Sequence record: NZ_CP136965.1
DNA: 8,962 nucleotides
DNA from: a plasmid
Direction: 5' to 3' (one strand)
A program made the translations under genes and the position numbers. The notes under the pieces are model-generated. The model was not told the DNA's origin. It did no database searches and saw only the letters and a program-made list of their open reading frames with translations. Below, piece after piece: positions 1 through 8,962 of this stretch (positions within the stretch are counted from its first letter, which is position 1; each line of letters starts with the position of its first letter).

Positions 1-780
1 ATGAGTGAGTCTAAATATAAAAGTGTTACTAGATTTAACAATGATATAAATACTATCCCTATGAGAAATTGGACTACTGAAGAAATGAATTTTTTCTTTG
101 CTGTATTAACAAGAATGAGGGATGAAGGTACACAGACTGTAGTGATGGATAAATACGAATTAGCAGAAATGGCTCGGTATACTATAGAGCATAATCAACG
201 TTATCAATCTACGTTGCATAATTTAACTAAAAAATTACAATCACTTTCATACTTTAAAGAAACTGATAATTCCTTAGTGATGATGCCCTTATTTACATAT
301 TTTGAGGCTCATTGGAATGATGATTTATCAGATATGACCTTAGAAATAGATGTAAATAAACGGTTTGAATATATTTTAAATGAATGGAACGAGGGAAACT
401 GGACACAGTTCATGTTAGACGAATTTTTAGATATAAAATCTACTTATTCAAAAACTTTGTTTAGATTATTAAAACAATATAGAGTTGCTGGAAAACGTGA
501 TTTTAGTATCGATGAGTTCAAATCTTTAATGGATATACCTAAATCTTATTCTACTGGTATGATTACGACACGTGTTGTAGAAAAAGGGGTTAAAGATCTG
601 AAATCTTATTTTGAAAATTTAAAGGTTAATAAAATCACATCAAATAAGCGTGGTAATCCTATTATAGGATATGAATTCACTTTTGAGCCAGAACGGGTTG
701 GAGCTTGGATCGAAGATAAATATGAGCGGAAAGAAGAACCATATTTGCCGTTTAAAAAATGGTTAGAAGAGGATGTTTAA
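1..780 (+). CDS. rep: Plasmid replication initiator, Rep_3-like (iteron-binding, winged-helix)
   Basis: 259-aa ORF. The N-terminal stretch NDINTIPMRNWTTEEMNFFFAVLTRM fits the Rep_3 N-terminal pattern. The C-terminal stretch FSIDEFKSLMDIPKSYSTGMITTRVVEKGVKDLKSY...KRGNPIIGYEFTF fits the Rep_3 C-terminal winged-helix signature (F..EF..L.IP.SY....I..RV....EL....KKGR.I..F.F). Copy 1 has its promoter at the end of copy 2, which is seen for copy 2 at 4426..4483. It sits directly downstream of the 21-bp iterons. Family assigned from remembered motifs, not from a search. Confidence 0.85.
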   Translation: MSESKYKSVTRFNNDINTIPMRNWTTEEMNFFFAVLTRMRDEGTQTVVMDKYELAEMARYTIEHNQRYQSTLHNLTKKLQSLSYFKETDNSLVMMPLFTYFEAHWNDDLSDMTLEIDVNKRFEYILNEWNEGNWTQFMLDEFLDIKSTYSKTLFRLLKQYRVAGKRDFSIDEFKSLMDIPKSYSTGMITTRVVEKGVKDLKSYFENLKVNKITSNKRGNPIIGYEFTFEPERVGAWIEDKYERKEEPYLPFKKWLEEDV

Positions 781-786
781 CTTAAT

Positions 787-802
787 AATGCTCTAGAGCA
801 TT
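787..802. repeat. Perfect 16-bp palindrome AATGCTCTAGAGCATT just after the rep stop codon
   Basis: The sequence is its own reverse complement. It sits 7 nt after the rep stop and has no T-run after it, so it is a poor intrinsic terminator. It may be a protein-binding site or a weak hairpin. Confidence 0.6.
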
Positions 803-822
803 ATAATATACAATGACGCACT

Positions 823-876
823 ATTTAAAAGTTATAAGCGTCTAAACAGTCTCTAGCAACTTGATTATAGCTAAAA
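823..876. repeat. Dispersed repeat A-prime, homologous to 2573..2646
   Basis: ATTTAAAAGTTATAAGC is an identical 17-mer at 823..839 and 2573..2589. It is followed by similar GTCTAAACAGTCTCTAGCAAC versus CTTTAAACTGCTTATAGCGAC, and later by ATAGCTAAA in both. Confidence 0.7.
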
Positions 877-1060
877 CTACTTAAATTTAAGCAAAATTAA
901 ATAGTAGATCTGTTTTTTGCAATTCGAGATGTGATAGAAAAAGAAAAAAATAACCCAACTAGTAGTACACATAATGAGATTATTCTTCATTTGAAGCTTA
1001 ATTAGTGCATACGCCATATATACTATGTAAAAAATATAATATTTAAAGTGAATTTAAAAA

Positions 1061-1089
1061 TTGAAAACGTTTTACAAAAAATATATGCT
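1061..1089 (+). promoter_or_regulatory. Putative sigma-A promoter of the small-peptide operon
   Basis: TTGAAA at 1061..1066, a 17-nt spacer, and TATGCT at 1084..1089. SD AAAGGAG at 1095..1101 and ATG at 1109 follow. Confidence 0.4.
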
Positions 1090-1108
1090 GTTTTAAAGGA
1101 GTAGAATT

Positions 1109-1216
1109 ATGAATAAACTTATTATTTATATTGTCAGTGTAATTTTAGTTTCAATTTTAGGTTTTTTAAGTATAAAAGCTAATGATAATCAACCTGCTAG
1201 TTTTTTAAAGAACTAA
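1109..1216 (+). CDS. 35-aa hydrophobic single-TM peptide (MNKLIIYIVSVILVSILGFLSIKANDNQPASFLKN)
   Basis: ATG with SD AAAGGAG seven nt upstream. An N-terminal transmembrane helix is followed by a polar tail, an architecture typical of Fst/Ldr-like membrane peptides. It is below the ORF-track length cutoff and was found by reading the sequence. Confidence 0.5.
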   Translation: MNKLIIYIVSVILVSILGFLSIKANDNQPASFLKN

Positions 1217-1306
1217 AAAGAATGGCAGGAATTTTATTTATTGATTCTATACTTATTTTTTTAGCAGTATATTTTCATTACAATTAAAAAGGAAGTTGGT
1301 TGGGTC

Positions 1307-1486
1307 ATGAAAGAAAGATTATTGTGGTTGTTAGTATATATAATTTGTTTATTAATTTTATATACTGTTAATTTTAAATTTGATATGTACTCATGGTATA
1401 TATTAACTTTTATAGCTTTAGGAATAGGACTAATTTCTTATATTTCATTAGAGTTAAAGATTAGTAAAAATAAAGAAGAGCATTAA
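1307..1486 (+). CDS. 59-aa two-TM small membrane protein (MKERLLWLLVYIICLLILYTVNFKFDMYSWYILTFIALGIGLISYISLELKISKNKEEH)
   Basis: ATG at 1307 with SD AAAGGAAG at 1288..1295. It has two hydrophobic segments and a charged C-terminus. The stop codon lies inside the bidirectional terminator hairpin. Confidence 0.5.
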   Translation: MKERLLWLLVYIICLLILYTVNFKFDMYSWYILTFIALGIGLISYISLELKISKNKEEH

Positions 1487-1504
1487 ATGCTCTTCTTTAT
1501 TTTG
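1472..1504. terminator. Bidirectional rho-independent terminator shared by convergent genes
   Basis: Stem AAGAAGAGCA (1473..1482) pairs with TGCTCTTCTT (1488..1497) around loop TTAAA. A T-run follows on the plus strand (TATTTT) and an A-run precedes it, which gives a U-run on the minus strand. It sits between the peptide operon (plus) and the secreted-protein gene (minus). Confidence 0.65.
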
Positions 1505-1973
1505 GTGTAGCGGTAAAATGGCTTACTACATAATATTTATCAGTTCCTTTTCTCAGGTATCTGTAATGTGCGGTTAATTTAAAATTTTTAGCACTTGATT
1601 TTTTCAAAGTATTATTAAGTTGATCAGAAGAATGAGGCAAAGTACTTGCAATTATAGTGGAGGCTACTCCTGTTGCTATAGATGCATAAGGAGATAAAGG
1701 AATAGCTATTAATGTTCCACCGAGAGATATACTAACGTCTCTTGTTATTTTATTACCAGTAGCTTGCTTAGCGATTTTATTTAATTCTGCTCTAGTGACG
1801 GTTGTAGATGTAGTGAAACCCTTTGTACCATATTTTTTATATAGTTTTGGAGATGCCCAAATTGTTTCACCAGCTGCTTTGGCTTTATTATGCTGGTTAG
1901 TCTCTGGAACAATCATTAATAGAACTGCAAAAACAAGAAAAACAGATAATGTTTTTTTGAAATAGGTATTCAT
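1497..1973 (-). CDS. 158-aa protein with Sec-type signal peptide and an internal hydrophobic segment; hypothetical secreted or membrane-anchored protein
   Basis: The ORF track gives 1497..2015. I place the start at the internal Met (MNTYFKK...) at 1973 because SD TAGGGAGGC (plus 1981..1989) lies 7 nt upstream of it. The track's upstream ATG has no SD and lies upstream of the predicted -10. Signal peptide: n-region MNTYFKK, h-region TLSVFLVFAVLLMIV, AKA-A cleavage motif. The internal stretch ISLGGTLIAIPLSPYASIATGVASTIIASTL may be a transmembrane segment. The C-terminal tail is basic. I do not recognise the family. Confidence 0.7.
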   Translation of the reverse strand: MNTYFKKTLSVFLVFAVLLMIVPETNQHNKAKAAGETIWASPKLYKKYGTKGFTTSTTVTRAELNKIAKQATGNKITRDVSISLGGTLIAIPLSPYASIATGVASTIIASTLPHSSDQLNNTLKKSSAKNFKLTAHYRYLRKGTDKYYVVSHFTATPK

Positions 1974-2013
1974 AGATAACGCCTCCCTAATATTTTGAAT
2001 TTTCTTACATTTC

Positions 2014-2042
2014 ATTATATTATCATAGTATATTATTAAAAA
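2014..2042 (-). promoter_or_regulatory. Putative promoter of the secreted-protein gene
   Basis: On the minus strand, a weak -35 TTTTTA (plus 2037..2042), a 17-nt spacer and TATAAT (plus 2014..2019). This gives a 5' UTR of about 33 nt carrying SD GGGAGG. Confidence 0.35.
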
Positions 2043-2248
2043 TATACTATTTAGGAGGATATGCAGATATTACTTTCACAAAAACAAGAATTGATACTTA
2101 TCATATGGGAGAGAAACTATATAGCAGATATGTAACTTCTAAAAAAATTCATGACACATACTTACTCGTAAAATATAAATAAAAGAAAAACTAACGCATA
2201 GGATAATGTCTTTACATAGCAAATAAAGACATCTAAATACCTTAATCA

Positions 2249-2277
2249 TGTTAGAAATTAATAGATCATGTTATAAT
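2249..2277 (+). promoter_or_regulatory. Strong extended -10 promoter (TGtTATAAT) for the candidate sRNA
   Basis: TG at 2269..2270, then T, then TATAAT at 2272..2277. A -35-like GTTAGA/TTAGAA lies at 2250..2256. Confidence 0.55.
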
Positions 2278-2283
2278 GTAATT

Positions 2284-2350
2284 AACAAATTTAGAAGTTC
2301 TATCATAGAACACACAAACCCCATCAGTCTGCATACTGATGGGGTTTTTT
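2284..2350 (+). ncRNA. Candidate small RNA of about 67 nt with an intrinsic terminator
   Basis: The predicted TSS is about 7 nt after TATAAT. The body contains the inverted repeat GTTCTAT-C-ATAGAAC. It ends in a strong terminator: stem AACCCCATCAGT (2317..2328), loop CTGCAT, stem ACTGATGGGGTT (2335..2346), then TTTT (2347..2350). No ORF with an SD lies inside it. Confidence 0.45.
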
Positions 2351-2446
2351 GTGCCTAAATTTAGGGCAACTGTTTACTTGTTGTGATGCGTATCTAGGTA
2401 ACGCTCTATCACTAACAAGATGACACCGACAATAATTGGTGCCACG

Positions 2447-2494
2447 AACAAATTTAGAAGTTCGTAAACCATAGAACACACCCCCTTTCGGGGC
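2447..2494. repeat. Degenerate paralogous copy of the sRNA body (B element)
   Basis: AACAAATTTAGAAGTTC is identical at 2284..2300 and 2447..2463. It is followed in both by CATAGAACACAC and a C4...G4 hairpin; here the hairpin is CCCC-TTTC-GGGG. On the minus strand this reads CCCC-GAAA-GGGG, a GNRA tetraloop, followed by a U-rich stretch. B has no promoter and no T-tail. Confidence 0.6.
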
Positions 2495-2572
2495 AGTTGC
2501 CATGTATGAGTATATCGGTTAAATATATACTACATCAATGCTTTATAGCCATTTAACTGATAACTATGCATG

Positions 2573-2646
2573 ATTTAAAAGTTATAAGCCTTTAAACTGC
2601 TTATAGCGACCTTAGATTTAGTTATTTAAGTCTAAAATAGCTAAAG
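2573..2646. repeat. Dispersed repeat B-prime, homologous to 823..876
   Basis: Shares the 17-mer ATTTAAAAGTTATAAGC and flanking similarity with A-prime. It contains the small hairpin ATAAGC-N9-GCTTAT. Confidence 0.7.
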
Positions 2647-2665
2647 AATCTGATTTAGTAGAAGT

Positions 2666-3094
2666 TTATAAATCATCAATTGTTATTCTTTGAAATCTTT
2701 TATCTTCCCTTTTTTCTACTAGTTCTTCTTTTTGTATTTTATTGTCGTTCATTAATTTATTTCTGTAATGTCTATCAATAGCTTCTTTACCTTTTATGGC
2801 TCTTAAAGAATCTCCATAATATAAATTAGAAACTTTAAGTTCCTGACGTTCCATCATGGAATAAGTAAATTGTATGTTCAGTTCTAATAAAGATTTAAGG
2901 TGCTTTACTTCATCAACAATTTGTTTATTTGTATAGTTATCTTCATTTTCTAAATCTAAAAGAGTTAAAATCGCATGTCTTAAAAACTCTGACCTTGTAA
3001 TGTATTTGTGTTTATTTTTCAGAATATGGATATCTAATTCCTTTAACAGATCTGTATCAATATCAAAATTTAATCGTTTAATTTCTTTAGTCAT
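2666..3094 (-). CDS. 142-aa ribbon-helix-helix (CopG/Arc/MetJ-like) DNA-binding protein with an extended charged C-terminal domain
   Basis: N-terminal KRLNFDIDTDLLKELDIHILKNKHKYITRSEFLRHAILTLL fits a beta-strand / helix A / turn / helix B RHH fold. SD GGGAGAGAG (plus 3100..3108) lies 5 nt upstream. The start ATG overlaps the upstream gene's stop by 8 nt (ATGACTAA), which indicates translational coupling. Family called from the motif only. Confidence 0.75.
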   Translation of the reverse strand: MTKEIKRLNFDIDTDLLKELDIHILKNKHKYITRSEFLRHAILTLLDLENEDNYTNKQIVDEVKHLKSLLELNIQFTYSMMERQELKVSNLYYGDSLRAIKGKEAIDRHYRNKLMNDNKIQKEELVEKREDKRFQRITIDDL

Positions 3095-3371
3095 TATTAC
3101 TCTCTCCCATTCCTAAAAGTTCTTTAAGCATATTTGCATGTATTTCATGCCAAATGTTTAATTCATTAATAGCTTTATTTTGTTTGTTCAACATTCTACT
3201 GACATCTGTTAGTACTCTTCTTTGTTCTATTTTTTGAGAATTACTATATTCTTCAGTGATATCTTCTCGAATTAAATTTAGTATATATTCATTCATGGAT
3301 ACGTCTTTTTTTTTAGCAATTTCTGAAAGATATGAATGTAATTCTGATGGTAAACGTAGTAGAAAATTCAT
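3087..3371 (-). CDS. 94-aa ribbon-helix-helix protein with a C-terminal coiled-coil-like helix
   Basis: N-terminal FLLRLPSELHSYLSEIAKKKDVSMNEYILNLIRED is a classic RHH motif. The C-terminal half (QKIEQRRVLTDVSRMLNKQNKAINELNIWHEIHANMLKELL) is helical with heptad-like spacing. SD AGGGGAGA lies just upstream. It is the first gene of a two-gene operon and sits directly downstream of the palindrome array. Confidence 0.75.
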   Translation of the reverse strand: MNFLLRLPSELHSYLSEIAKKKDVSMNEYILNLIREDITEEYSNSQKIEQRRVLTDVSRMLNKQNKAINELNIWHEIHANMLKELLGMGESNND

Positions 3372-3392
3372 AAAATCTCCCCTTTATTATTT

Positions 3393-3586
3393 AATTAAAA
3401 ATTAATCATACAATGATAAATACACTTTTATTTTAACTTATACCGATTAAAAATTAATCAAACTACTTAAAAACGATATCATTAACGATTAATTTCTAAT
3501 CATAAGATTAATATTTAATCATTTGGTTTGTCAATAGAAAAACAGTTGGCACTGCCAACTTATCACTCATGATTAATTTTTAATCA
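3393..3586. promoter_or_regulatory. Array of five 16-bp palindromes, consensus GATTAA-N4-TAATCA, upstream of the RHH operon (operator or centromere-like)
   Basis: Site 1 at 3393..3408 (AATTAA-AAAT-TAATCA). Site 2 at 3445..3460 (GATTAA-AAAT-TAATCA). Site 3 at 3487..3502 (GATTAA-TTTC-TAATCA). Site 4 at 3506..3521 (GATTAA-TATT-TAATCA). Site 5 at 3571..3586 (GATTAA-TTTT-TAATCA, extended to the perfect 9-3-9 inverted repeat CATGATTAA-TTT-TTAATCATG at 3568..3588). Site 1 overlaps the likely -10 (TATGAT on minus, plus 3405..3410) of the RHH operon. Confidence 0.7.
3544..3560. repeat. GC-rich perfect palindrome AGTTGGCA-C-TGCCAACT inside the palindrome array
   Basis: An 8-1-8 perfect inverted repeat between site 4 and site 5. 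It is unusually GC-rich for this replicon. Confidence 0.6.
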
Positions 3587-3599
3587 TGAAAAGTGATAT

Positions 3600-4160
3600 T
3601 GTTTTTCCTTATGCTCTTTAAAAAAGACAAAAAATGGGCTGTTTCTTCAAAAAAAGTGAATTGGAATTTAAGATTTTTGTAACAATCTCTTATGATTTTT
3701 TGAGATTTAAGCCTTAAAAATTTCTAAAAAAGAATATTAAAAATGCTAAATTTCGAAAAATAATTCACTCTTAAATCTGATTCACTTTTTAAATCAATTC
3801 TTAAAAAATATCTCCTGTAAGCTCAAATTTTGACATCAAAATTAAATAAATACCCCGTATCCGAATTTTCAGGAAACGGAAAACTCTCTCTGAAAAGACC
3901 TATTCTTTTTCTTTTAATGGCCATGTAAGCGCTTGATTTAAGCTTAAAAAATACTTTAGGTATAAAAACACCTAAAATAAATTAGAATCGCTTAGAATGG
4001 CTTATTTAGGTTTATAGCTATGTTTAACCTCCTTAATTAAGCTTCAAAAATCATTTAAAGGCTCTTAGACGCTTTATTTTCTTTTCTACTACCTTTTTAT
4101 GCTTAAAAGATTTTTTAAGCGTTCTGAGACTCTTATTTAGAGTTAAAGATTAATTAAAAG
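3600..4160. repeat. About 560-bp non-coding AT-rich region with dispersed short motifs
   Basis: No ORF with an SD. TTAAGC(C)TTAAAAA occurs three times (about 3704, 3938, 4038). CTTAGAAT is tandemly repeated at 3983..4010. AAGCGTTCTGAGAC (4116..4129) and TTAGACGCTT (4066..4075, the inverse of AAGCGTCTAA at 838..847) share a motif with repeat A-prime. Confidence 0.5.
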
Positions 4161-4162
4161 TT

Positions 4163-4183
4163 GGTTTATGAGAACAAAATGTC
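4163..4183 (+). repeat. Distal fifth iteron (GGTTTATGAGAACAAAATGTC)
   Basis: A 21/21 match to the iteron unit, 137 bp upstream of the main iteron array, on the other side of the (CG)4 tract and the AT-rich element. Confidence 0.75.
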
Positions 4184-4217
4184 ATTAATTAAAATATAAA
4201 ATATTGGTGTGTTTTTT

Positions 4218-4233
4218 CGCGCGCGCACGTACA
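4218..4233. other. Alternating purine-pyrimidine tract CGCGCGCGCACGTACA (Z-DNA-prone; GC island in AT-rich DNA)
   Basis: Sixteen nt of perfect pyrimidine/purine alternation including (CG)4. It lies immediately 5' of a 45-bp 100% A+T stretch. Confidence 0.6.
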
Positions 4234-4235
4234 AC

Positions 4236-4280
4236 TATATTTAAATAATATTTAATATAATATTTATATATATATTTAGA
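4236..4280. other. DNA unwinding element of the origin (45 bp, 100% A+T)
   Basis: TATATTTAAATAATATTTAATATAATATTTATATATATATTTAGA lies between the distal iteron and the iteron array. Confidence 0.65.
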
Positions 4281-4319
4281 CACCTTATAAACATTGATAT
4301 GATAACCTTTATAAGACCT

Positions 4320-4413
4320 TATGAGAACAAAATGTCGGTTTATGAGAACAAAATGTCGGTTTATGAGAACAAAATGTCGGTTTATGAGAACAAAATGTCG
4401 GTTTATGAGAACG
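4320..4413 (+). repeat. Origin iterons: 4 x 21-bp TATGAGAACAAAATGTCGGTT plus a 10-bp partial
   Basis: Perfect direct repeats at 4320, 4341, 4362 and 4383, with partial TATGAGAACG at 4404..4413. The 21-bp period is two helical turns. The array sits immediately upstream of rep. Confidence 0.9.
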
Positions 4414-4425
4414 TTTTTTTATATA

Positions 4426-4483
4426 TTGTTCTCATAAACTTTTTATGATATTATAAGAACATAAAAATAAGAGGTGTTCTTAT
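4426..4483 (+). promoter_or_regulatory. rep promoter with inverted half-iteron and operator inverted repeat spanning the SD and start codon
   Basis: -35 TTGTTC at 4426..4431, a 17-nt spacer, -10 TATTAT at 4449..4454. The inverted half-iteron GTTCTCATAAAC at 4428..4439 overlaps the -35. The inverted repeat ATAAGAACA (4453..4461) / TGTTCTTAT (4475..4483) brackets SD AAGAGGTG and includes the rep ATG. The half-sites resemble the iteron core TAT(G/A)AGAAC. This is the classic Rep autorepression layout. Confidence 0.6.
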
Positions 4484-5261
4484 GAGTGAGTCTAAATATA
4501 AAAGTGTTACTAGATTTAACAATGATATAAATACTATCCCTATGAGAAATTGGACTACTGAAGAAATGAATTTTTTCTTTGCTGTATTAACAAGAATGAG
4601 GGATGAAGGTACACAGACTGTAGTGATGGATAAATACGAATTAGCAGAAATGGCTCGGTATACTATAGAGCATAATCAACGTTATCAATCTACGTTGCAT
4701 AATTTAACTAAAAAATTACAATCACTTTCATACTTTAAAGAAACTGATAATTCCTTAGTGATGATGCCCTTATTTACATATTTTGAGGCTCATTGGAATG
4801 ATGATTTATCAGATATGACCTTAGAAATAGATGTAAATAAACGGTTTGAATATATTTTAAATGAATGGAACGAGGGAAACTGGACACAGTTCATGTTAGA
4901 CGAATTTTTAGATATAAAATCTACTTATTCAAAAACTTTGTTTAGATTATTAAAACAATATAGAGTTGCTGGAAAACGTGATTTTAGTATCGATGAGTTC
5001 AAATCTTTAATGGATATACCTAAATCTTATTCTACTGGTATGATTACGACACGTGTTGTAGAAAAAGGGGTTAAAGATCTGAAATCTTATTTTGAAAATT
5101 TAAAGGTTAATAAAATCACATCAAATAAGCGTGGTAATCCTATTATAGGATATGAATTCACTTTTGAGCCAGAACGGGTTGGAGCTTGGATCGAAGATAA
5201 ATATGAGCGGAAAGAAGAACCATATTTGCCGTTTAAAAAATGGTTAGAAGAGGATGTTTAA
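4482..5261 (+). CDS. rep: Plasmid replication initiator, Rep_3-like (copy 2)
   Basis: Identical copy of 1..780. SD AAGAGGTG lies at 4469..4476, five nt before the ATG at 4482. Iterons lie immediately upstream. Confidence 0.85.
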   Translation: MSESKYKSVTRFNNDINTIPMRNWTTEEMNFFFAVLTRMRDEGTQTVVMDKYELAEMARYTIEHNQRYQSTLHNLTKKLQSLSYFKETDNSLVMMPLFTYFEAHWNDDLSDMTLEIDVNKRFEYILNEWNEGNWTQFMLDEFLDIKSTYSKTLFRLLKQYRVAGKRDFSIDEFKSLMDIPKSYSTGMITTRVVEKGVKDLKSYFENLKVNKITSNKRGNPIIGYEFTFEPERVGAWIEDKYERKEEPYLPFKKWLEEDV

Positions 5262-5267
5262 CTTAAT

Positions 5268-5283
5268 AATGCTCTAGAGCATT
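5268..5283. repeat. Perfect 16-bp palindrome (copy 2)
   Basis: Copy of 787..802. Confidence 0.6.
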
Positions 5284-5303
5284 ATAATATACAATGACGC
5301 ACT

Positions 5304-5357
5304 ATTTAAAAGTTATAAGCGTCTAAACAGTCTCTAGCAACTTGATTATAGCTAAAA
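5304..5357. repeat. Dispersed repeat A-prime (copy 2)
   Basis: Copy of 823..876. Confidence 0.7.
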
Positions 5358-5541
5358 CTACTTAAATTTAAGCAAAATTAAATAGTAGATTTGTTTTTTG
5401 CAATTCGAGATGTGATAGAAAAAGAAAAAAATAACCCAACTAGTAGTACACATAATGAGATTATTCTTCATTTGAAGCTTAATTAGTGCATACGCCATAT
5501 ATACTATGTAAAAAATATAATATTTAAAGTGAATTTAAAAA

Positions 5542-5570
5542 TTGAAAACGTTTTACAAAAAATATATGCT
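5542..5570 (+). promoter_or_regulatory. Putative promoter of the small-peptide operon (copy 2)
   Basis: Copy of 1061..1089. Confidence 0.4.
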
Positions 5571-5589
5571 GTTTTAAAGGAGTAGAATT

Positions 5590-5697
5590 ATGAATAAACT
5601 TATTATTTATATTGTCAGTGTAATTTTAGTTTCAATTTTAGGTTTTTTAAGTATAAAAGCTAATGATAATCAACCTGCTAGTTTTTTAAAGAACTAA
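5590..5697 (+). CDS. 35-aa hydrophobic peptide (copy 2)
   Basis: Copy of 1109..1216. Confidence 0.5.
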   Translation: MNKLIIYIVSVILVSILGFLSIKANDNQPASFLKN

Positions 5698-5787
5698 AAA
5701 GAATGGCAGGAATTTTATTTATTGATTCTATACTTATTTTTTTAGCAGTATATTTTCATTACAATTAAAAAGGAAGTTGGTTGGGTC

Positions 5788-5967
5788 ATGAAAGAAAGAT
5801 TATTGTGGTTGTTAGTATATATAATTTGTTTATTAATTTTATATACTGTTAATTTTAAATTTGATATGTACTCATGGTATATATTAACTTTTATAGCTTT
5901 AGGAATAGGACTAATTTCTTATATTTCATTAGAGTTAAAGATTAGTAAAAATAAAGAAGAGCATTAA
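5788..5967 (+). CDS. 59-aa small membrane protein (copy 2)
   Basis: Copy of 1307..1486. Confidence 0.5.
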   Translation: MKERLLWLLVYIICLLILYTVNFKFDMYSWYILTFIALGIGLISYISLELKISKNKEEH

Positions 5968-5985
5968 ATGCTCTTCTTTATTTTG
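5953..5985. terminator. Bidirectional terminator (copy 2)
   Basis: Copy of 1472..1504. Confidence 0.65.
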
Positions 5986-6454
5986 GTGTAGCGGTAAAAT
6001 GGCTTACTACATAATATTTATCAGTTCCTTTTCTCAGGTATCTGTAATGTGCGGTTAATTTAAAATTTTTAGCACTTGATTTTTTCAAAGTATTATTAAG
6101 TTGATCAGAAGAATGAGGCAAAGTACTTGCAATTATAGTGGAGGCTACTCCTGTTGCTATAGATGCATAAGGAGATAAAGGAATAGCTATTAATGTTCCA
6201 CCGAGAGATATACTAACGTCTCTTGTTATTTTATTACCAGTAGCTTGCTTAGCGATTTTATTTAATTCTGCTCTAGTGACGGTTGTAGATGTAGTGAAAC
6301 CCTTTGTACCATATTTTTTATATAGTTTTGGAGATGCCCAAATTGTTTCACCAGCTGCTTTGGCTTTATTATGCTGGTTAGTCTCTGGAACAATCATTAA
6401 TAGAACTGCAAAAACAAGAAAAACAGATAATGTTTTTTTGAAATAGGTATTCAT
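5978..6454 (-). CDS. 158-aa signal-peptide protein (copy 2)
   Basis: Copy of 1497..1973. Confidence 0.7.
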   Translation of the reverse strand: MNTYFKKTLSVFLVFAVLLMIVPETNQHNKAKAAGETIWASPKLYKKYGTKGFTTSTTVTRAELNKIAKQATGNKITRDVSISLGGTLIAIPLSPYASIATGVASTIIASTLPHSSDQLNNTLKKSSAKNFKLTAHYRYLRKGTDKYYVVSHFTATPK

Positions 6455-6494
6455 AGATAACGCCTCCCTAATATTTTGAATTTTCTTACATTTC

Positions 6495-6523
6495 ATTATA
6501 TTATCATAGTATATTATTAAAAA
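6495..6523 (-). promoter_or_regulatory. Putative promoter of the secreted-protein gene (copy 2)
   Basis: Copy of 2014..2042. Confidence 0.35.
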
Positions 6524-6729
6524 TATACTATTTAGGAGGATATGCAGATATTACTTTCACAAAAACAAGAATTGATACTTATCATATGGGAGAGAAACTA
6601 TATAGCAGATATGTAACTTCTAAAAAAATTCATGACACATACTTACTCGTAAAATATAAATAAAAGAAAAACTAACGCATAGGATAATGTCTTTACATAG
6701 CAAATAAAGACATCTAAATACCTTAATCA

Positions 6730-6758
6730 TGTTAGAAATTAATAGATCATGTTATAAT
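6730..6758 (+). promoter_or_regulatory. Extended -10 promoter for the candidate sRNA (copy 2)
   Basis: Copy of 2249..2277. Confidence 0.55.
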
Positions 6759-6764
6759 GTAATT

Positions 6765-6831
6765 AACAAATTTAGAAGTTCTATCATAGAACACACAAAC
6801 CCCATCAGTCTGCATACTGATGGGGTTTTTT
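6765..6831 (+). ncRNA. Candidate small RNA (copy 2)
   Basis: Copy of 2284..2350. Confidence 0.45.
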
Positions 6832-6927
6832 GTGCCTAAATTTAGGGCAACTGTTTACTTGTTGTGATGCGTATCTAGGTAACGCTCTATCACTAACAAG
6901 ATGACACCGACAATAATTGGTGCCACG

Positions 6928-6975
6928 AACAAATTTAGAAGTTCGTAAACCATAGAACACACCCCCTTTCGGGGC
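6928..6975. repeat. B element (copy 2)
   Basis: Copy of 2447..2494. Confidence 0.6.
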
Positions 6976-7053
6976 AGTTGCCATGTATGAGTATATCGGT
7001 TAAATATATACTACATCAATGCTTTATAGCCATTTAACTGATAACTATGCATG

Positions 7054-7127
7054 ATTTAAAAGTTATAAGCCTTTAAACTGCTTATAGCGACCTTAGATTT
7101 AGTTATTTAAGTCTAAAATAGCTAAAG
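7054..7127. repeat. Dispersed repeat B-prime (copy 2)
   Basis: Copy of 2573..2646. Confidence 0.7.
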
Positions 7128-7146
7128 AATCTGATTTAGTAGAAGT

Positions 7147-7575
7147 TTATAAATCATCAATTGTTATTCTTTGAAATCTTTTATCTTCCCTTTTTTCTAC
7201 TAGTTCTTCTTTTTGTATTTTATTGTCGTTCATTAATTTATTTCTGTAATGTCTATCAATAGCTTCTTTACCTTTTATGGCTCTTAAAGAATCTCCATAA
7301 TATAAATTAGAAACTTTAAGTTCCTGACGTTCCATCATGGAATAAGTAAATTGTATGTTCAGTTCTAATAAAGATTTAAGGTGCTTTACTTCATCAACAA
7401 TTTGTTTATTTGTATAGTTATCTTCATTTTCTAAATCTAAAAGAGTTAAAATCGCATGTCTTAAAAACTCTGACCTTGTAATGTATTTGTGTTTATTTTT
7501 CAGAATATGGATATCTAATTCCTTTAACAGATCTGTATCAATATCAAAATTTAATCGTTTAATTTCTTTAGTCAT
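7147..7575 (-). CDS. 142-aa RHH-domain protein (copy 2)
   Basis: Copy of 2666..3094. Confidence 0.75.
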   Translation of the reverse strand: MTKEIKRLNFDIDTDLLKELDIHILKNKHKYITRSEFLRHAILTLLDLENEDNYTNKQIVDEVKHLKSLLELNIQFTYSMMERQELKVSNLYYGDSLRAIKGKEAIDRHYRNKLMNDNKIQKEELVEKREDKRFQRITIDDL

Positions 7576-7852
7576 TATTACTCTCTCCCATTCCTAAAAG
7601 TTCTTTAAGCATATTTGCATGTATTTCATGCCAAATGTTTAATTCATTAATAGCTTTATTTTGTTTGTTCAACATTCTACTGACATCTGTTAGTACTCTT
7701 CTTTGTTCTATTTTTTGAGAATTACTATATTCTTCAGTGATATCTTCTCGAATTAAATTTAGTATATATTCATTCATGGATACGTCTTTTTTTTTAGCAA
7801 TTTCTGAAAGATATGAATGTAATTCTGATGGTAAACGTAGTAGAAAATTCAT
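7568..7852 (-). CDS. 94-aa RHH protein (copy 2)
   Basis: Copy of 3087..3371. Confidence 0.75.
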   Translation of the reverse strand: MNFLLRLPSELHSYLSEIAKKKDVSMNEYILNLIREDITEEYSNSQKIEQRRVLTDVSRMLNKQNKAINELNIWHEIHANMLKELLGMGESNND

Positions 7853-7873
7853 AAAATCTCCCCTTTATTATTT

Positions 7874-8067
7874 AATTAAAAATTAATCATACAATGATAA
7901 ATACACTTTTATTTTAACTTATACCGATTAAAAATTAATCAAACTACTTAAAAACGATATCATTAACGATTAATTTCTAATCATAAGATTAATATTTAAT
8001 CATTTGGTTTGTCAATAGAAAAACAGTTGGCACTGCCAACTTATCACTCATGATTAATTTTTAATCA
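7874..8067. promoter_or_regulatory. GATTAA-N4-TAATCA palindrome array (copy 2)
   Basis: Copy of 3393..3586. Confidence 0.7.
8025..8041. repeat. GC-rich palindrome (copy 2)
   Basis: Copy of 3544..3560. Confidence 0.6.
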
Positions 8068-8080
8068 TGAAAAGTGATAT

Positions 8081-8641
8081 TGTTTTTCCTTATGCTCTTT
8101 AAAAAAGACAAAAAATGGGCTGTTTCTTCAAAAAAAGTGAATTGGAATTTAAGATTTTTGTAACAATCTCTTATGATTTTTTGAGATTTAAGCCTTAAAA
8201 ATTTCTAAAAAAGAATATTAAAAATGCTAAATTTCGAAAAATAATTCACTCTTAAATCTGATTCACTTTTTAAATCAATTCTTAAAAAATATCTCCTGTA
8301 AGCTCAAATTTTGACATCAAAATTAAATAAATACCCCGTATCCGAATTTTCAGGAAACGGAAAACTCTCTCTGAAAAGACCTATTCTTTTTCTTTTAATG
8401 GCCATGTAAGCGCTTGATTTAAGCTTAAAAAATACTTTAGGTATAAAAACACCTAAAATAAATTAGAATCGCTTAGAATGGCTTATTTAGGTTTATAGCT
8501 ATGTTTAACCTCCTTAATTAAGCTTCAAAAATCATTTAAAGGCTCTTAGACGCTTTATTTTCTTTTCTACTACCTTTTTATGCTTAAAAGATCTTTTAAG
8601 CGTTCTGAGACTCTTATTTAGAGTTAAAGATTAATTAAAAG
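8081..8641. repeat. AT-rich motif-bearing non-coding region (copy 2)
   Basis: Copy of 3600..4160. Position 8593 is C where 4112 is T. Confidence 0.5.
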
Positions 8642-8643
8642 TT

Positions 8644-8664
8644 GGTTTATGAGAACAAAATGTC
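8644..8664 (+). repeat. Distal iteron (copy 2)
   Basis: Copy of 4163..4183. Confidence 0.75.
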
Positions 8665-8698
8665 ATTAATTAAAATATAAAATATTGGTGTGTTTTTT

Positions 8699-8714
8699 CG
8701 CGCGCGCACGTACA
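8699..8714. other. Alternating CG tract (copy 2)
   Basis: Copy of 4218..4233. Confidence 0.6.
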
Positions 8715-8716
8715 AC

Positions 8717-8761
8717 TATATTTAAATAATATTTAATATAATATTTATATATATATTTAGA
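8717..8761. other. DNA unwinding element (copy 2)
   Basis: Copy of 4236..4280. Confidence 0.65.
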
Positions 8762-8800
8762 CACCTTATAAACATTGATATGATAACCTTTATAAGACCT

Positions 8801-8894
8801 TATGAGAACAAAATGTCGGTTTATGAGAACAAAATGTCGGTTTATGAGAACAAAATGTCGGTTTATGAGAACAAAATGTCGGTTTATGAGAACG
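8801..8894 (+). repeat. Origin iterons (copy 2)
   Basis: Copy of 4320..4413. Confidence 0.9.
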
Positions 8895-8906
8895 TTTTTT
8901 TATATA

Positions 8907-8962
8907 TTGTTCTCATAAACTTTTTATGATATTATAAGAACATAAAAATAAGAGGTGTTCTT
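8907..8962 (+). promoter_or_regulatory. rep promoter/operator (copy 2, cut by the window end; would drive copy 1 of rep on a circle)
   Basis: Copy of 4426..4483, cut 2 nt short of the ATG. Confidence 0.6.

What the first reader, a model, noticed from the sequence alone, without database searches (positions are those of the whole stretch)
1..8962. Head-to-tail dimer whose two monomers differ only at two positions, both C/T at the cytosine of a GATC site
- The copies are identical over 4481 bp except 910 C (GATC) versus 5391 T (GATT), and 4112 T (GATT) versus 8593 C (GATC).
- Each monomer therefore has a GATC where the other has GATT, so neither monomer is simply the ancestral form.
- C-to-T at the C of GATC is what deamination of 5-methylcytosine produces. 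Sau3AI-type modification in staphylococci methylates that cytosine (M.Sau3AI is a C5 methyltransferase for GATC).
- The pattern is therefore consistent with a methylation-driven mutational hotspot, captured as a heterodimer of two plasmid variants.
- Alternatively the window is a circular-assembly overlap artefact, and the two differences are read-level heterogeneity.
- The replicon encodes no resolvase, and no good dif-like or res site is visible. That would let dimers persist.
Basis: partly seen in the sequence, partly recalled or inferred. Interest (0 to 1): 0.55.

Follow-up and report, generated by a model that had tools for sequence, protein, structure and literature searches.

The report
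Doubled plasmid contig, GATC basecalling errors
The window is a small Nosocomiicoccus massiliensis plasmid written out twice, and the few bases that differ between the copies, or from independent short-read copies, all sit in GATC sites, which fits sequencing errors at methylated DNA rather than real mutations.

Summary
The window is exactly 2 x 4481 bp with two differences, 910 C/5391 T and 4112 T/8593 C, both at the C of GATC.

The monomer is an ordinary Rep_3/iteron theta plasmid. An exact protein look-up ties it to an 8962-bp Nosocomiicoccus massiliensis record with two Rep accessions.

Independent short-read contigs of the same plasmid have GATC at both sites. The nearly full-length one (L020, 4324 bp, no gaps) differs from the window only at four places, all inside GATC motifs:
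- the two discordant sites;
- 3684, G to A in both copies;
- 1246-47, GATCTT to GATTCT in both copies.

No base elsewhere in the monomer is private to the window. Natural relatives show no excess of transitions at GATC (3/18 vs 297/1406 C/G columns).

C-to-T and G-to-A consensus errors at methylated GATC are the documented residual error of Nanopore R10.4.1 assemblies. Whole-plasmid duplication is a documented long-read assembler error.

Best reading (about 0.8): a doubled contig carrying methylation-linked consensus errors that fell differently in each copy. A deamination hotspot caught in a heterodimer is not supported. The sequencing platform and the host methyltransferase could not be checked. 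Interest is low.

The parts
1..4481 (.). Monomer copy 1 of the plasmid (complete replicon unit)
   Evidence: Exact period of 4481 bp, 4479/4481 identical to copy 2. The window starts at the ATG of rep.
4482..8962 (.). Monomer copy 2
   Evidence: The record length of 8962 equals the longest contig carrying this Rep, which has two protein accessions, WOS97025.1 and WOS97029.1.
907..910 (.). GATC site that is intact in copy 1 and reads GATT in copy 2 (5388-5391)
   Evidence: L002, L020 and L034 all have GATC here. T at 5391 is seen in no relative.
4109..4112 (.). GATT in copy 1 where copy 2 has GATC (8590-8593). It is the centre of a 20-bp palindrome, GCTTAAAAGATCTTTTAAGC, which is perfect only in copy 2 (8582-8601).
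   Evidence: All 12 relatives covering position 4112 have C. The palindrome was read from the sequence.
3684..3687 (.). AATC in both copies (also 8165-8168) where every relative has GATC. This is a G-to-A change at the G of GATC.
   Evidence: All 14 relatives covering the site have G, and the N. ampullae plasmid L001 also reads GATC there.
1243..1248 (.). GATTCT in both copies (also 5724-5729) where relatives have GATCTT. This is a TC-to-CT swap that removes a GATC.
   Evidence: Seven relatives, plus L034, all have GATCTT.
1..780 (+). rep gene for a Rep_3 family initiator, 259 aa (second copy 4482-5261)
   Evidence: Pfam Rep3_N 2e-20 and Rep3_C 1.9e-9. Named as N. massiliensis replication initiation protein WP_102167894.1.
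4319..4412 (.). Iterons: 21-bp unit x 4.5, perfect copies, just upstream of rep (second copy 8800-8893). There is also a lone iteron near 4163-4183 and an AT-rich stretch at 4236-4278.
2264..2503 (-). Conserved block read as an Fst/par-like type I toxin-antitoxin locus. It holds a 32-aa hydrophobic ORF at 2374-2472 (-), a hairpin at 2318-2349 that could terminate both strands, and 17-nt direct repeats at 2284 and 2447.
   Evidence: Rfam RF02848, sub-threshold, E 1.7e-5. Alignment of divergent copies. ORF. Pfam Fst_toxin, sub-threshold, 20.6 and 25.3 bits against a cut-off of 36.
2666..3371 (-). Two overlapping genes for small proteins with ribbon-helix-helix-like N-termini (94 aa at 3087-3371, 142 aa at 2666-3094). 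Palindromic GATTAATNTTTAATCAT boxes lie upstream at 3394-3587.
   Evidence: Pfam HicB/Arc. NCBIfam aCcr1, YlcI/YnfO and ORF56, all sub-threshold. Repeats D3, D5, D7 and I21.
853..2263 (.). Variable cargo module: 35-aa ORF at 1109-1216 (+), 59-aa membrane-like ORF at 1307-1486 (+), and a 172-aa ORF with an N-terminal hydrophobic segment (possible signal peptide, read by eye from the sequence and not run through a predictor) at 1497-2015 (-). Relatives carry other ORFs here.
   Evidence: Homology breakpoints at 852 and 2268 in L022-L028. Gene tables. A 74-nt direct repeat at 787-860 and 2537-2610.

Best explanation
The window is a GenBank record of a 4481-bp Rep_3/iteron plasmid of Nosocomiicoccus massiliensis. 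A long-read assembler emitted it as a circularised double-length contig, and it was then rotated to start at rep.

The host methylates GATC; whether as 6mA, 5mC or 4mC is undetermined. In native Nanopore reads, a methylated GATC makes one strand miscall the G as A. In the consensus this appears as C-to-T at position 4 or G-to-A at position 1 of the motif. Per-site read accuracy is only a little above one half.

Each copy of the doubled contig was polished with an arbitrary share of the reads that map equally to both copies. The consensus at such borderline sites therefore fell differently:
- wrong in both copies at 3684 and 1246-47;
- wrong in one copy only at 910/5391 and 4112/8593;
- right in both at the other five GATC sites.

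Shown here: the exact duplication, the GATC-only location of every window-private base, GATC at these sites in short-read copies, and no natural GATC hotspot in relatives.

Inferred: the Nanopore origin, the host's GATC methylation, and that the doubling is computational rather than a physical dimer.
For: - The window is exactly 2.000 copies and starts at the rep ATG. The same 8962-bp contig carries two Rep accessions from N. massiliensis.
- L020, a Logan short-read contig of 4324 bp, aligns without gaps. It differs from the window only at 910/5391, 1246-47, 3684 and 4112.
- Across the whole monomer, the only bases not seen in any relative are those four events, all inside GATC motifs of the relatives. 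The chance of this is about 4e-9.
- Window-private events are 4/4 at GATC, against 0/15 for natural close variants (Fisher p 2.6e-4).
- Natural relatives show no GATC transition excess.
- PMC11610603: R10.4.1 assembly substitutions are dominated by C2T and G2A at methylated sites. The sites were mostly GATC in E. faecium and K. pneumoniae. They are strand-specific, with 54-65% read accuracy and few indel errors. GAT5mC in S. aureus lowers accuracy at the G and the C.
- bioRxiv 10.64898/2026.01.14.699587: GATC accounts for about 80% of G2A error-prone sites in E. coli and K. pneumoniae.
- PMC11610573: R/Y ambiguous positions are methylation-linked, and not all of them become assembly errors.
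- PMC6966772 and PMC12460055: small plasmids fully duplicated in one contig are a common long-read assembler error.
Against: - The sequencing platform and pipeline of the record are unknown to me. A PacBio or short-read origin would not give this error type.
- The TC-to-CT swap at 1246-47 is not the simple C2T/G2A error the papers describe.
- The strain behind L020 is unknown, so the two changes shared by both copies could in principle be real strain differences.
- Sites 907 and 4109, the two discordant ones, are also polymorphic in some natural relatives, as AATC in L009/L010 and others. They are therefore not under strong constraint.
- Host GATC methylation was not demonstrated.
- Physical plasmid multimers do occur in cells and cannot be excluded from sequence alone.
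Confidence: 0.8

Rival explanations
1. First reader's reading. A real heterodimer of two plasmid variants, each carrying a genuine C-to-T mutation made by deamination of 5-methylcytosine at a Sau3AI-type GAT5mC site. The dimer persists because the plasmid has no multimer resolution system.
For: - Both inter-copy differences are C/T at the C of GATC, and 3684 is the same change on the other strand.
- GAT5mC methylation exists in the related family, in S. aureus.
- No resolvase and no dif-like site were found.
Against: - There is no excess of transitions at GATC in natural relatives, and none of the 15 close-variant polymorphisms is at GATC.
- The window has no private change outside GATC. With a 10- to 100-fold hotspot, four of four events at GATC has probability 2e-6 to 7e-3.
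- GATCTT to GATTCT cannot arise by deamination.
- By inference from ordinary mutation and recombination rates, a dimer would have to persist unresolved for very many generations to gather independent mutations in each half.
- The same pattern is a published sequencing artefact.
Confidence: 0.04
2. Real mutations fixed by selection for loss of GATC sites, that is, escape from a GATC-cutting restriction enzyme met on transfer to a new host. Different sites were lost in each half of a real dimer or in co-resident variants.
For: - All four private events destroy a GATC, including the non-transition swap at 1246-47.
- Selection, unlike deamination, does not care about mutation type.
Against: - Five GATC sites remain intact in both copies, so no escape is achieved.
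- GATC is not clearly depleted, with 9 observed against 11 expected.
- Relatives keep these sites.
- It needs four independent adaptive substitutions with no neutral ones, plus a stable heterodimer or heteroplasmy.
Confidence: 0.03
3. Physical dimers or multimers of the plasmid really are abundant in the culture, and the contig reflects a dimer molecule. The base differences are still methylation-linked consensus errors.
For: - No multimer resolution function was detected.
- Exactly 2.000 copies were circularised.
- From general knowledge, recA-proficient hosts form plasmid multimers, and long reads can span them.
Against: - Assemblers duplicate small plasmids without any physical dimer.
- Short-read assemblies of relatives close as monomer-size circles (4389, 4315, 3967 and 3988 bp), although short reads cannot reveal dimers.
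- Nothing in the sequence distinguishes the two cases.
Confidence: 0.15
4. A mixed population (heteroplasmy) of monomer variants with real C/T polymorphism at the two sites, which the assembler stitched into one chimeric double-length contig.
For: The two T alleles lie on different copies.
Against: - It needs two independent variants at intermediate frequency in a clonal culture, both at GATC cytosines (p 1.5e-4 among C positions).
- The T alleles are absent from every short-read copy.
- Methylation-linked miscalls produce exactly such apparent heterogeneity.
Confidence: 0.04

Closest known systems
Methylation-induced Nanopore (R10.4.1) consensus errors at GATC (Liu et al. 2024, PMC11610603; Lohde et al. 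2024, PMC11610573)
   Same: - Substitutions are confined to a short methylation motif.
- They are C-to-T at the C or G-to-A at the G of GATC.
- Indels are essentially absent.
- Only a fraction of motif copies is hit, so the outcome varies between replicate consensus calls.
   Different: - Here the two replicates are the two halves of one doubled contig.
- One event is a TC-to-CT swap, not a single transition.
- Platform, strand bias and methylation were not verified.
Whole-plasmid duplication in long-read assemblies, about 200% contiguity (Wick & Holt, PMC6966772; Autocycler paper, PMC12460055)
   Same: A small high-copy plasmid appears as exactly two head-to-tail units in a single contig treated as circular.
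   Different: The assembler is unknown. A true physical dimer cannot be excluded from the sequence.
5-methylcytosine deamination hotspots, such as Dcm CCWGG sites in E. coli lacI (from general knowledge)
   Same: C-to-T at the methylated cytosine of a methyltransferase motif. This is what three of the four events look like.
   Different: - Known hotspots are tens-fold, not thousands-fold, above background.
- Natural relatives show no enrichment.
- One event is not a transition.
Rep_3 iteron theta plasmids of Staphylococcaceae and related Bacillota, such as N. ampullae pDSM19163_1 (CP079111)
   Same: - Rep3_N plus Rep3_C initiator, 61% identical.
- Iterons upstream of rep.
- A shared non-coding backbone at 75-84% identity.
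   Different: This plasmid carries extra modules: two ribbon-helix-helix genes, an Fst-like locus and cargo ORFs. It is 4481 bp against 2626 bp.
par (Fst / RNA I-RNA II) type I toxin-antitoxin locus of Enterococcus faecalis pAD1
   Same: - A 32-aa hydrophobic peptide containing APIIVG.
- A hairpin that could terminate both strands.
- Direct repeats placed so that convergent transcripts would be complementary.
   Different: The Pfam and Rfam scores are below the curated cut-offs. No transcript evidence is available.

Membership tests
Long-read assembly duplication of a small circular plasmid | The contig is an exact integer multiple of one complete replicon unit. | tested here: met
   2 x 4481 bp, 4479/4481 identical. 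Each unit has one rep, one iteron array and the same genes.
Long-read assembly duplication of a small circular plasmid | Independent assemblies give the monomer. | tested here: inconclusive
   Short-read contigs of the same or related plasmids are monomer-size. L020 is 4324 bp, and relatives close as circles of 4389, 4315, 3967 and 3988 bp. Short-read assemblers would collapse a dimer anyway.
Long-read assembly duplication of a small circular plasmid | Raw reads or gels show monomer-length molecules only. | not testable with these tools
   No read data or wet-lab access.
Methylation-induced Nanopore consensus errors | Discrepancies with accurate short-read sequence are confined to one short motif. 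| tested here: met
   All four window-private events lie in GATC motifs and none lie elsewhere in 4481 bp. p is about 4e-9.
Methylation-induced Nanopore consensus errors | The error type is C-to-T or G-to-A. | tested here: inconclusive
   Three of four events fit (910, 4112, 3684). The fourth is C-to-T plus an adjacent T-to-C at 1246-47.
Methylation-induced Nanopore consensus errors | The record was made from native-DNA Nanopore reads, with strand-specific mismatch at the sites. | not testable with these tools
   Platform and reads are unavailable. The absence of indels against L020 is compatible with R10.4.1 but is not proof.
Methylation-induced Nanopore consensus errors | The host methylates the motif. 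| not testable with these tools
   The host was identified as N. massiliensis.
5mC deamination mutational hotspot | Changes are C-to-T (or G-to-A) at the methylated cytosine only. | tested here: not met
   GATCTT to GATTCT at 1246-47 needs a T-to-C as well.
5mC deamination mutational hotspot | Natural variants of the same replicon are enriched for transitions at the motif. | tested here: not met
   3/18 GATC C/G columns against 297/1406 other C/G columns (OR 0.75, p 0.77). 0 of 15 close-variant polymorphisms are at GATC.
5mC deamination mutational hotspot | The host has a C5-methyltransferase acting on GATC. | not testable with these tools
   As above. Only S. aureus GAT5mC is documented.
Rep_3 iteron theta replicon | Rep protein with Rep3_N and Rep3_C winged-helix domains. 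| tested here: met
   74 bits and 38 bits, both above the Pfam cut-offs.
Rep_3 iteron theta replicon | Tandem iterons next to rep, with an AT-rich region. | tested here: met
   21 bp x 4.5 perfect copies at 4319-4412, and (TA)-rich sequence at 4236-4278.
Fst/par type I toxin-antitoxin | Small hydrophobic toxin peptide of the Fst family. | tested here: inconclusive
   Pfam Fst_toxin gives 20.6 bits (window) and 25.3 bits (L001 homologue) against a cut-off of 36. The ORF is conserved in divergent copies.
Fst/par type I toxin-antitoxin | Convergent toxin mRNA and antitoxin RNA sharing repeats and a bidirectional terminator. | tested here: inconclusive
   A hairpin at 2318-2349 with compensatory changes and 17-nt repeats at 2284 and 2447. 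No promoter or transcript evidence.

The most novel reading that the evidence does not exclude
The 8962-bp molecule is a real, stably kept heterodimer in this N. massiliensis strain. A strain-specific process aimed at GATC has changed four of nine GATC sites while leaving the rest of the plasmid untouched. That process would be either extreme deamination at GAT5mC or selection for restriction-site loss.
Probability: 0.04. Interest if true: 0.5.

Novelty: not a real feature. Interest (0 to 1): 0.1.

Why it matters
- The result is mainly database hygiene. A public plasmid record appears to be twice its true length. It probably carries six wrong site-copies, eight bases in all: 1246-47 and 3684 in both copies, 5391, and 4112. 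Comparative or SNP analyses would misread these as variation.
- It is also a warning for sequence-only scans. Near-identical tandem copies that differ only at a methyltransferase motif are a signature of native-DNA long-read consensus error, not of biology.
- As a by-product, the error pattern predicts that N. massiliensis methylates GATC.
- The underlying plasmid is an ordinary member of a mosaic Rep_3 family that is common in the ENA and Logan metagenome assemblies searched here.

Tried and rejected
- PLSDB megablast with the monomer found only a partial 83% match to N. ampullae pDSM19163_1. The record itself is not in that collection.
- The genome-contig scan with Rep found only distant relatives of 56-73% identity.
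- Two JGI metagenome scans and one IMG/VR scan with patterns spanning 3684 and 4112 found nothing.
- A paper search for the run and sample accessions of the short-read contigs found nothing. The strain behind L020 and L034 therefore stays unknown.
- Papers on Nosocomiicoccus say nothing on methylation.
- A search for dif, cer or difSL-like Xer sites gave nothing better than shuffled sequence.
- Homopolymer differences against scaffold L002 (A7 vs A6, T6 vs T5) first looked like Nanopore indel errors. I dropped this because L020 agrees with the window at both.
- BglII-type AGATCT methylation was considered, because both discordant sites are AGATCT. I dropped it because 1243 (TGATCT) and 3684 (CGATCT) are also affected, while AGATCT at 595 and 3049 is not.
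- In one search, three minus-strand ORFs were looked up with the wrong end trimmed and so were not found. Only the Rep look-up is valid.
- The flank of L026 has no match in PLSDB.

Full report
**1. The observation**

The window is an exact head-to-tail duplication. At offset 4481, 4479 of 4481 positions match, against about 1300-1470 at neighbouring offsets.

The only differences are:
- 910 C against 5391 T (AGATCTG / AGATTTG);
- 4112 T against 8593 C (AGATTTT / AGATCTT).

Both lie at the cytosine of a GATC, and one T lies in each copy. With 7 GATC sites per monomer, the chance that two random positions both hit such a cytosine is 2.4e-6, or 1.5e-4 among C positions only. The observation and its non-randomness are confirmed.

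**2. What the unit is**

Each 4481-bp unit is a complete small theta-type replicon. It contains:
- a Rep_3 initiator gene at 1-780, with Rep3_N and Rep3_C above the Pfam cut-offs;
- 4.5 perfect 21-bp iterons at 4319-4412 directly upstream of rep, with an AT-rich stretch and a lone iteron nearby;
- two overlapping genes for small ribbon-helix-helix-like proteins at 2666-3371 on the minus strand, with palindromic boxes upstream;
- a cargo module of small membrane-like or possibly secreted ORFs;
- a conserved non-coding block at 2264-2503.

No recombinase or resolvase domain was found among the ORFs scanned. No dif- or cer-like site beats shuffled sequence.

The window starts exactly at the rep ATG, so the record was rotated to a start gene. 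An exact-sequence look-up shows that this Rep is 'replication initiation protein [Nosocomiicoccus massiliensis]'. It has two GenBank protein accessions, WOS97025.1 and WOS97029.1, on a contig of 8962 bp. The window is therefore a whole deposited plasmid record of N. massiliensis, deposited as a dimer. The host belongs to the Staphylococcaceae but is not a Staphylococcus.

**3. Independent copies of the same plasmid**

Exact look-ups of the plasmid's proteins returned about thirty contigs from ENA and Logan assemblies, with MEGAHIT- and SPAdes-style names or k-mer-length end overlaps typical of short-read assemblers. Several close as monomer-size circles.

- L020 (Logan SRR5945993) covers window 25-4348 without a single gap. 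It differs at only four places: 910/5391, 1246-47, 3684 and 4112.
- L002 has GATC at both discordant sites, and L034 has GATC at 907, the only one of the two it covers.
- At 3684 the window has AATC in both copies. All 14 relatives covering the site have GATC, and so does the N. ampullae plasmid.
- At 1243-1248 the window has GATTCT in both copies, and all eight relatives have GATCTT.

I scanned the whole monomer for bases carried by the window but by no relative. Exactly these four events came back and nothing else.

All four fall inside the nine GATC motifs of the short-read sequence. Those motifs make up 0.8% of the bases, so the chance is about 4e-9. Six of the 18 GATC site-copies in the window are altered.

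**4. Is GATC a natural mutational hotspot in this plasmid family?**

No.
- Among the short-read relatives, transitions occur at 3 of 18 GATC C/G columns against 297 of 1406 other C/G columns (odds ratio 0.75, p 0.77).
- Among relatives over 99% identical, the 9 substitutions and 6 indels include none at GATC.
- The contrast with the window is 4/4 against 0/15 (Fisher p 2.6e-4).

A real hotspot would need to be roughly 1000-fold above the background rate to make four of four likely. Known 5mC hotspots are far weaker (general knowledge). The TC-to-CT change cannot come from deamination at all.

A heterodimer would also need to persist unresolved long enough for each half to mutate independently, with no neutral change anywhere else.

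**5. What fits instead**

Published work on native-DNA Nanopore R10.4.1 assemblies describes this pattern.
- Residual errors are dominated by C-to-T and G-to-A substitutions at methylated motifs. The sites were mostly GATC in E. faecium and K. pneumoniae.
- They arise from strand-specific miscalls that vanish in amplified DNA. Overall read accuracy at such sites is only 54-65%, and indel errors are few (PMC11610603).
- GAT5mC in S. aureus also lowers accuracy at the G and the C.
- GATC accounts for about 80% of G-to-A error-prone sites in E. coli and K. pneumoniae reads (bioRxiv 10.64898/2026.01.14.699587).
- R/Y ambiguous positions are methylation-linked and only sometimes become assembly errors (PMC11610573).

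Whole small plasmids duplicated within one contig are a recognised long-read assembler failure (PMC6966772; PMC12460055).

Taken together, the picture is as follows. In a doubled contig, reads map equally to both copies, so each copy is polished with an arbitrary subset. At sites where the read evidence is near 50:50, the consensus can fall either way. That gives two sites wrong in both copies, two wrong in one copy, and five right in both.

From general knowledge, polishers that ignore multi-mapped short reads would also leave such errors uncorrected in a duplicated contig.

**6. Caveats**

- I could not learn the record's sequencing platform, see its reads, or check the N. massiliensis chromosome for a GATC methyltransferase.
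- The strain behind L020 is unknown, so the two changes shared by both copies could formally be strain differences. Their location in GATC makes that unlikely.
- The 1246-47 swap is not the textbook single-transition error.
- Sites 907 and 4109 are also polymorphic in some relatives, as AATC. They are intergenic and weakly constrained, but the family-wide test shows no excess.
- Physical dimers may exist in the cells. The sequence cannot decide that, but the two differences are not evidence for them.

**7. Verdict**

The link to GATC, and probably to GATC methylation, is real. The favoured interpretation, a deamination hotspot captured in a heterodimer, is not supported.

The best explanation, at about 0.8, is a doubled long-read contig with methylation-linked consensus errors. 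This is a known artefact on an ordinary Rep_3 plasmid, so interest is low.

The most novel reading still open is a real heterodimer with a GATC-directed mutational or selective process. I put it at about 4%.

**8. Seen in passing**

The conserved block at 2264-2503 looks like an Fst/par-type type I toxin-antitoxin locus. It has:
- a 32-aa ORF, MVYELLNLFVAPIIVGVILLVIERYLDTHHNK, at 2374-2472 on the minus strand, conserved as coding in divergent copies;
- sub-threshold Pfam Fst_toxin and Rfam RF02848 hits;
- a hairpin at 2318-2349 with compensatory changes;
- 17-nt repeats at 2284 and 2447.

The family is mosaic. The cargo between about 852 and 2268 is exchanged among relatives. Some relatives carry two diverged copies of the Fst-like block flanking their cargo.

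Noticed in passing
window 2264-2503 (and 6745-6984): A conserved non-coding block (78-90% identical in N. ampullae pDSM19163_1, a Phocicoccus contig and diverged family members) that looks like an Fst/par-type type I toxin-antitoxin locus. It has a 32-aa hydrophobic ORF at 2374-2472 (-), a hairpin at 2318-2349 that could terminate both strands, and 17-nt direct repeats at 2284 and 2447. The Pfam Fst_toxin and Rfam RF02848 (Enterococcus sRNA B11) hits are sub-threshold.
   Followed up: partly
window 787-860 and 2537-2610; breakpoints at 852 and 2268: A 74-nt direct repeat (72% identical) brackets the cargo module plus the Fst-like block. Homology to relatives L022-L028 breaks at 852 and 2268, and those plasmids carry other ORFs (190 or 194 aa) instead. 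This suggests cassette exchange at repeated elements.
   Followed up: partly
L019 591-855 and 1910-2163 (also L021, L029): These related plasmids hold two copies of the Fst-like block, one 99% and one 78.5% identical to the window's. Both are in the same orientation and flank their cargo ORFs.
   Followed up: no
window 3394-3587: Five or six copies of a 17-nt palindromic box, GATTAATNTTTAATCAT, lie upstream of the ribbon-helix-helix gene at 3087-3371 (-). They are probably an operator array for autoregulation.
   Followed up: no
window 8582-8601 (4101-4120 in copy 1): A perfect 20-bp palindrome, GCTTAAAAGATCTTTTAAGC, is centred on the GATC at 8590-8593. The T at 4112 breaks it in copy 1. Similar GCTTAAAAA-type motifs recur through 3700-4120.
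   Followed up: no
window 4219-4230: An isolated alternating CG island, CGCGCGCGCACG, sits in a 27% GC plasmid. It lies between the lone iteron and the (TA)-rich stretch of the origin region.
   Followed up: no
L026 8036-13077: A 19.9-kb metagenome scaffold (LARS22-1 scaffold_323) ends in 1.26 tandem copies (period 4009 bp) of a related plasmid. They are joined to about 8 kb of other DNA encoding CueP, two SLFN/AlbA_2 ATPases and an acetyltransferase. This is either a cointegrate or a scaffolding wrap-around. The flank has no match in PLSDB.
   Followed up: partly
L006 and L008: Contigs filed under Haloferula chungangensis (Verrucomicrobiota) carry a 70-72% identical Rep_3 and the Fst-like block of this Bacillota plasmid family. 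They are probably contamination in that assembly.
   Followed up: no
window 2329 and 2334: Relatives L012 and L019 change two bases, C to A and T to G, at the top of the 2318-2349 hairpin. In those sequences the self-complementary match across the hairpin rises from 94% to 100% over 32 nt.
   Followed up: no
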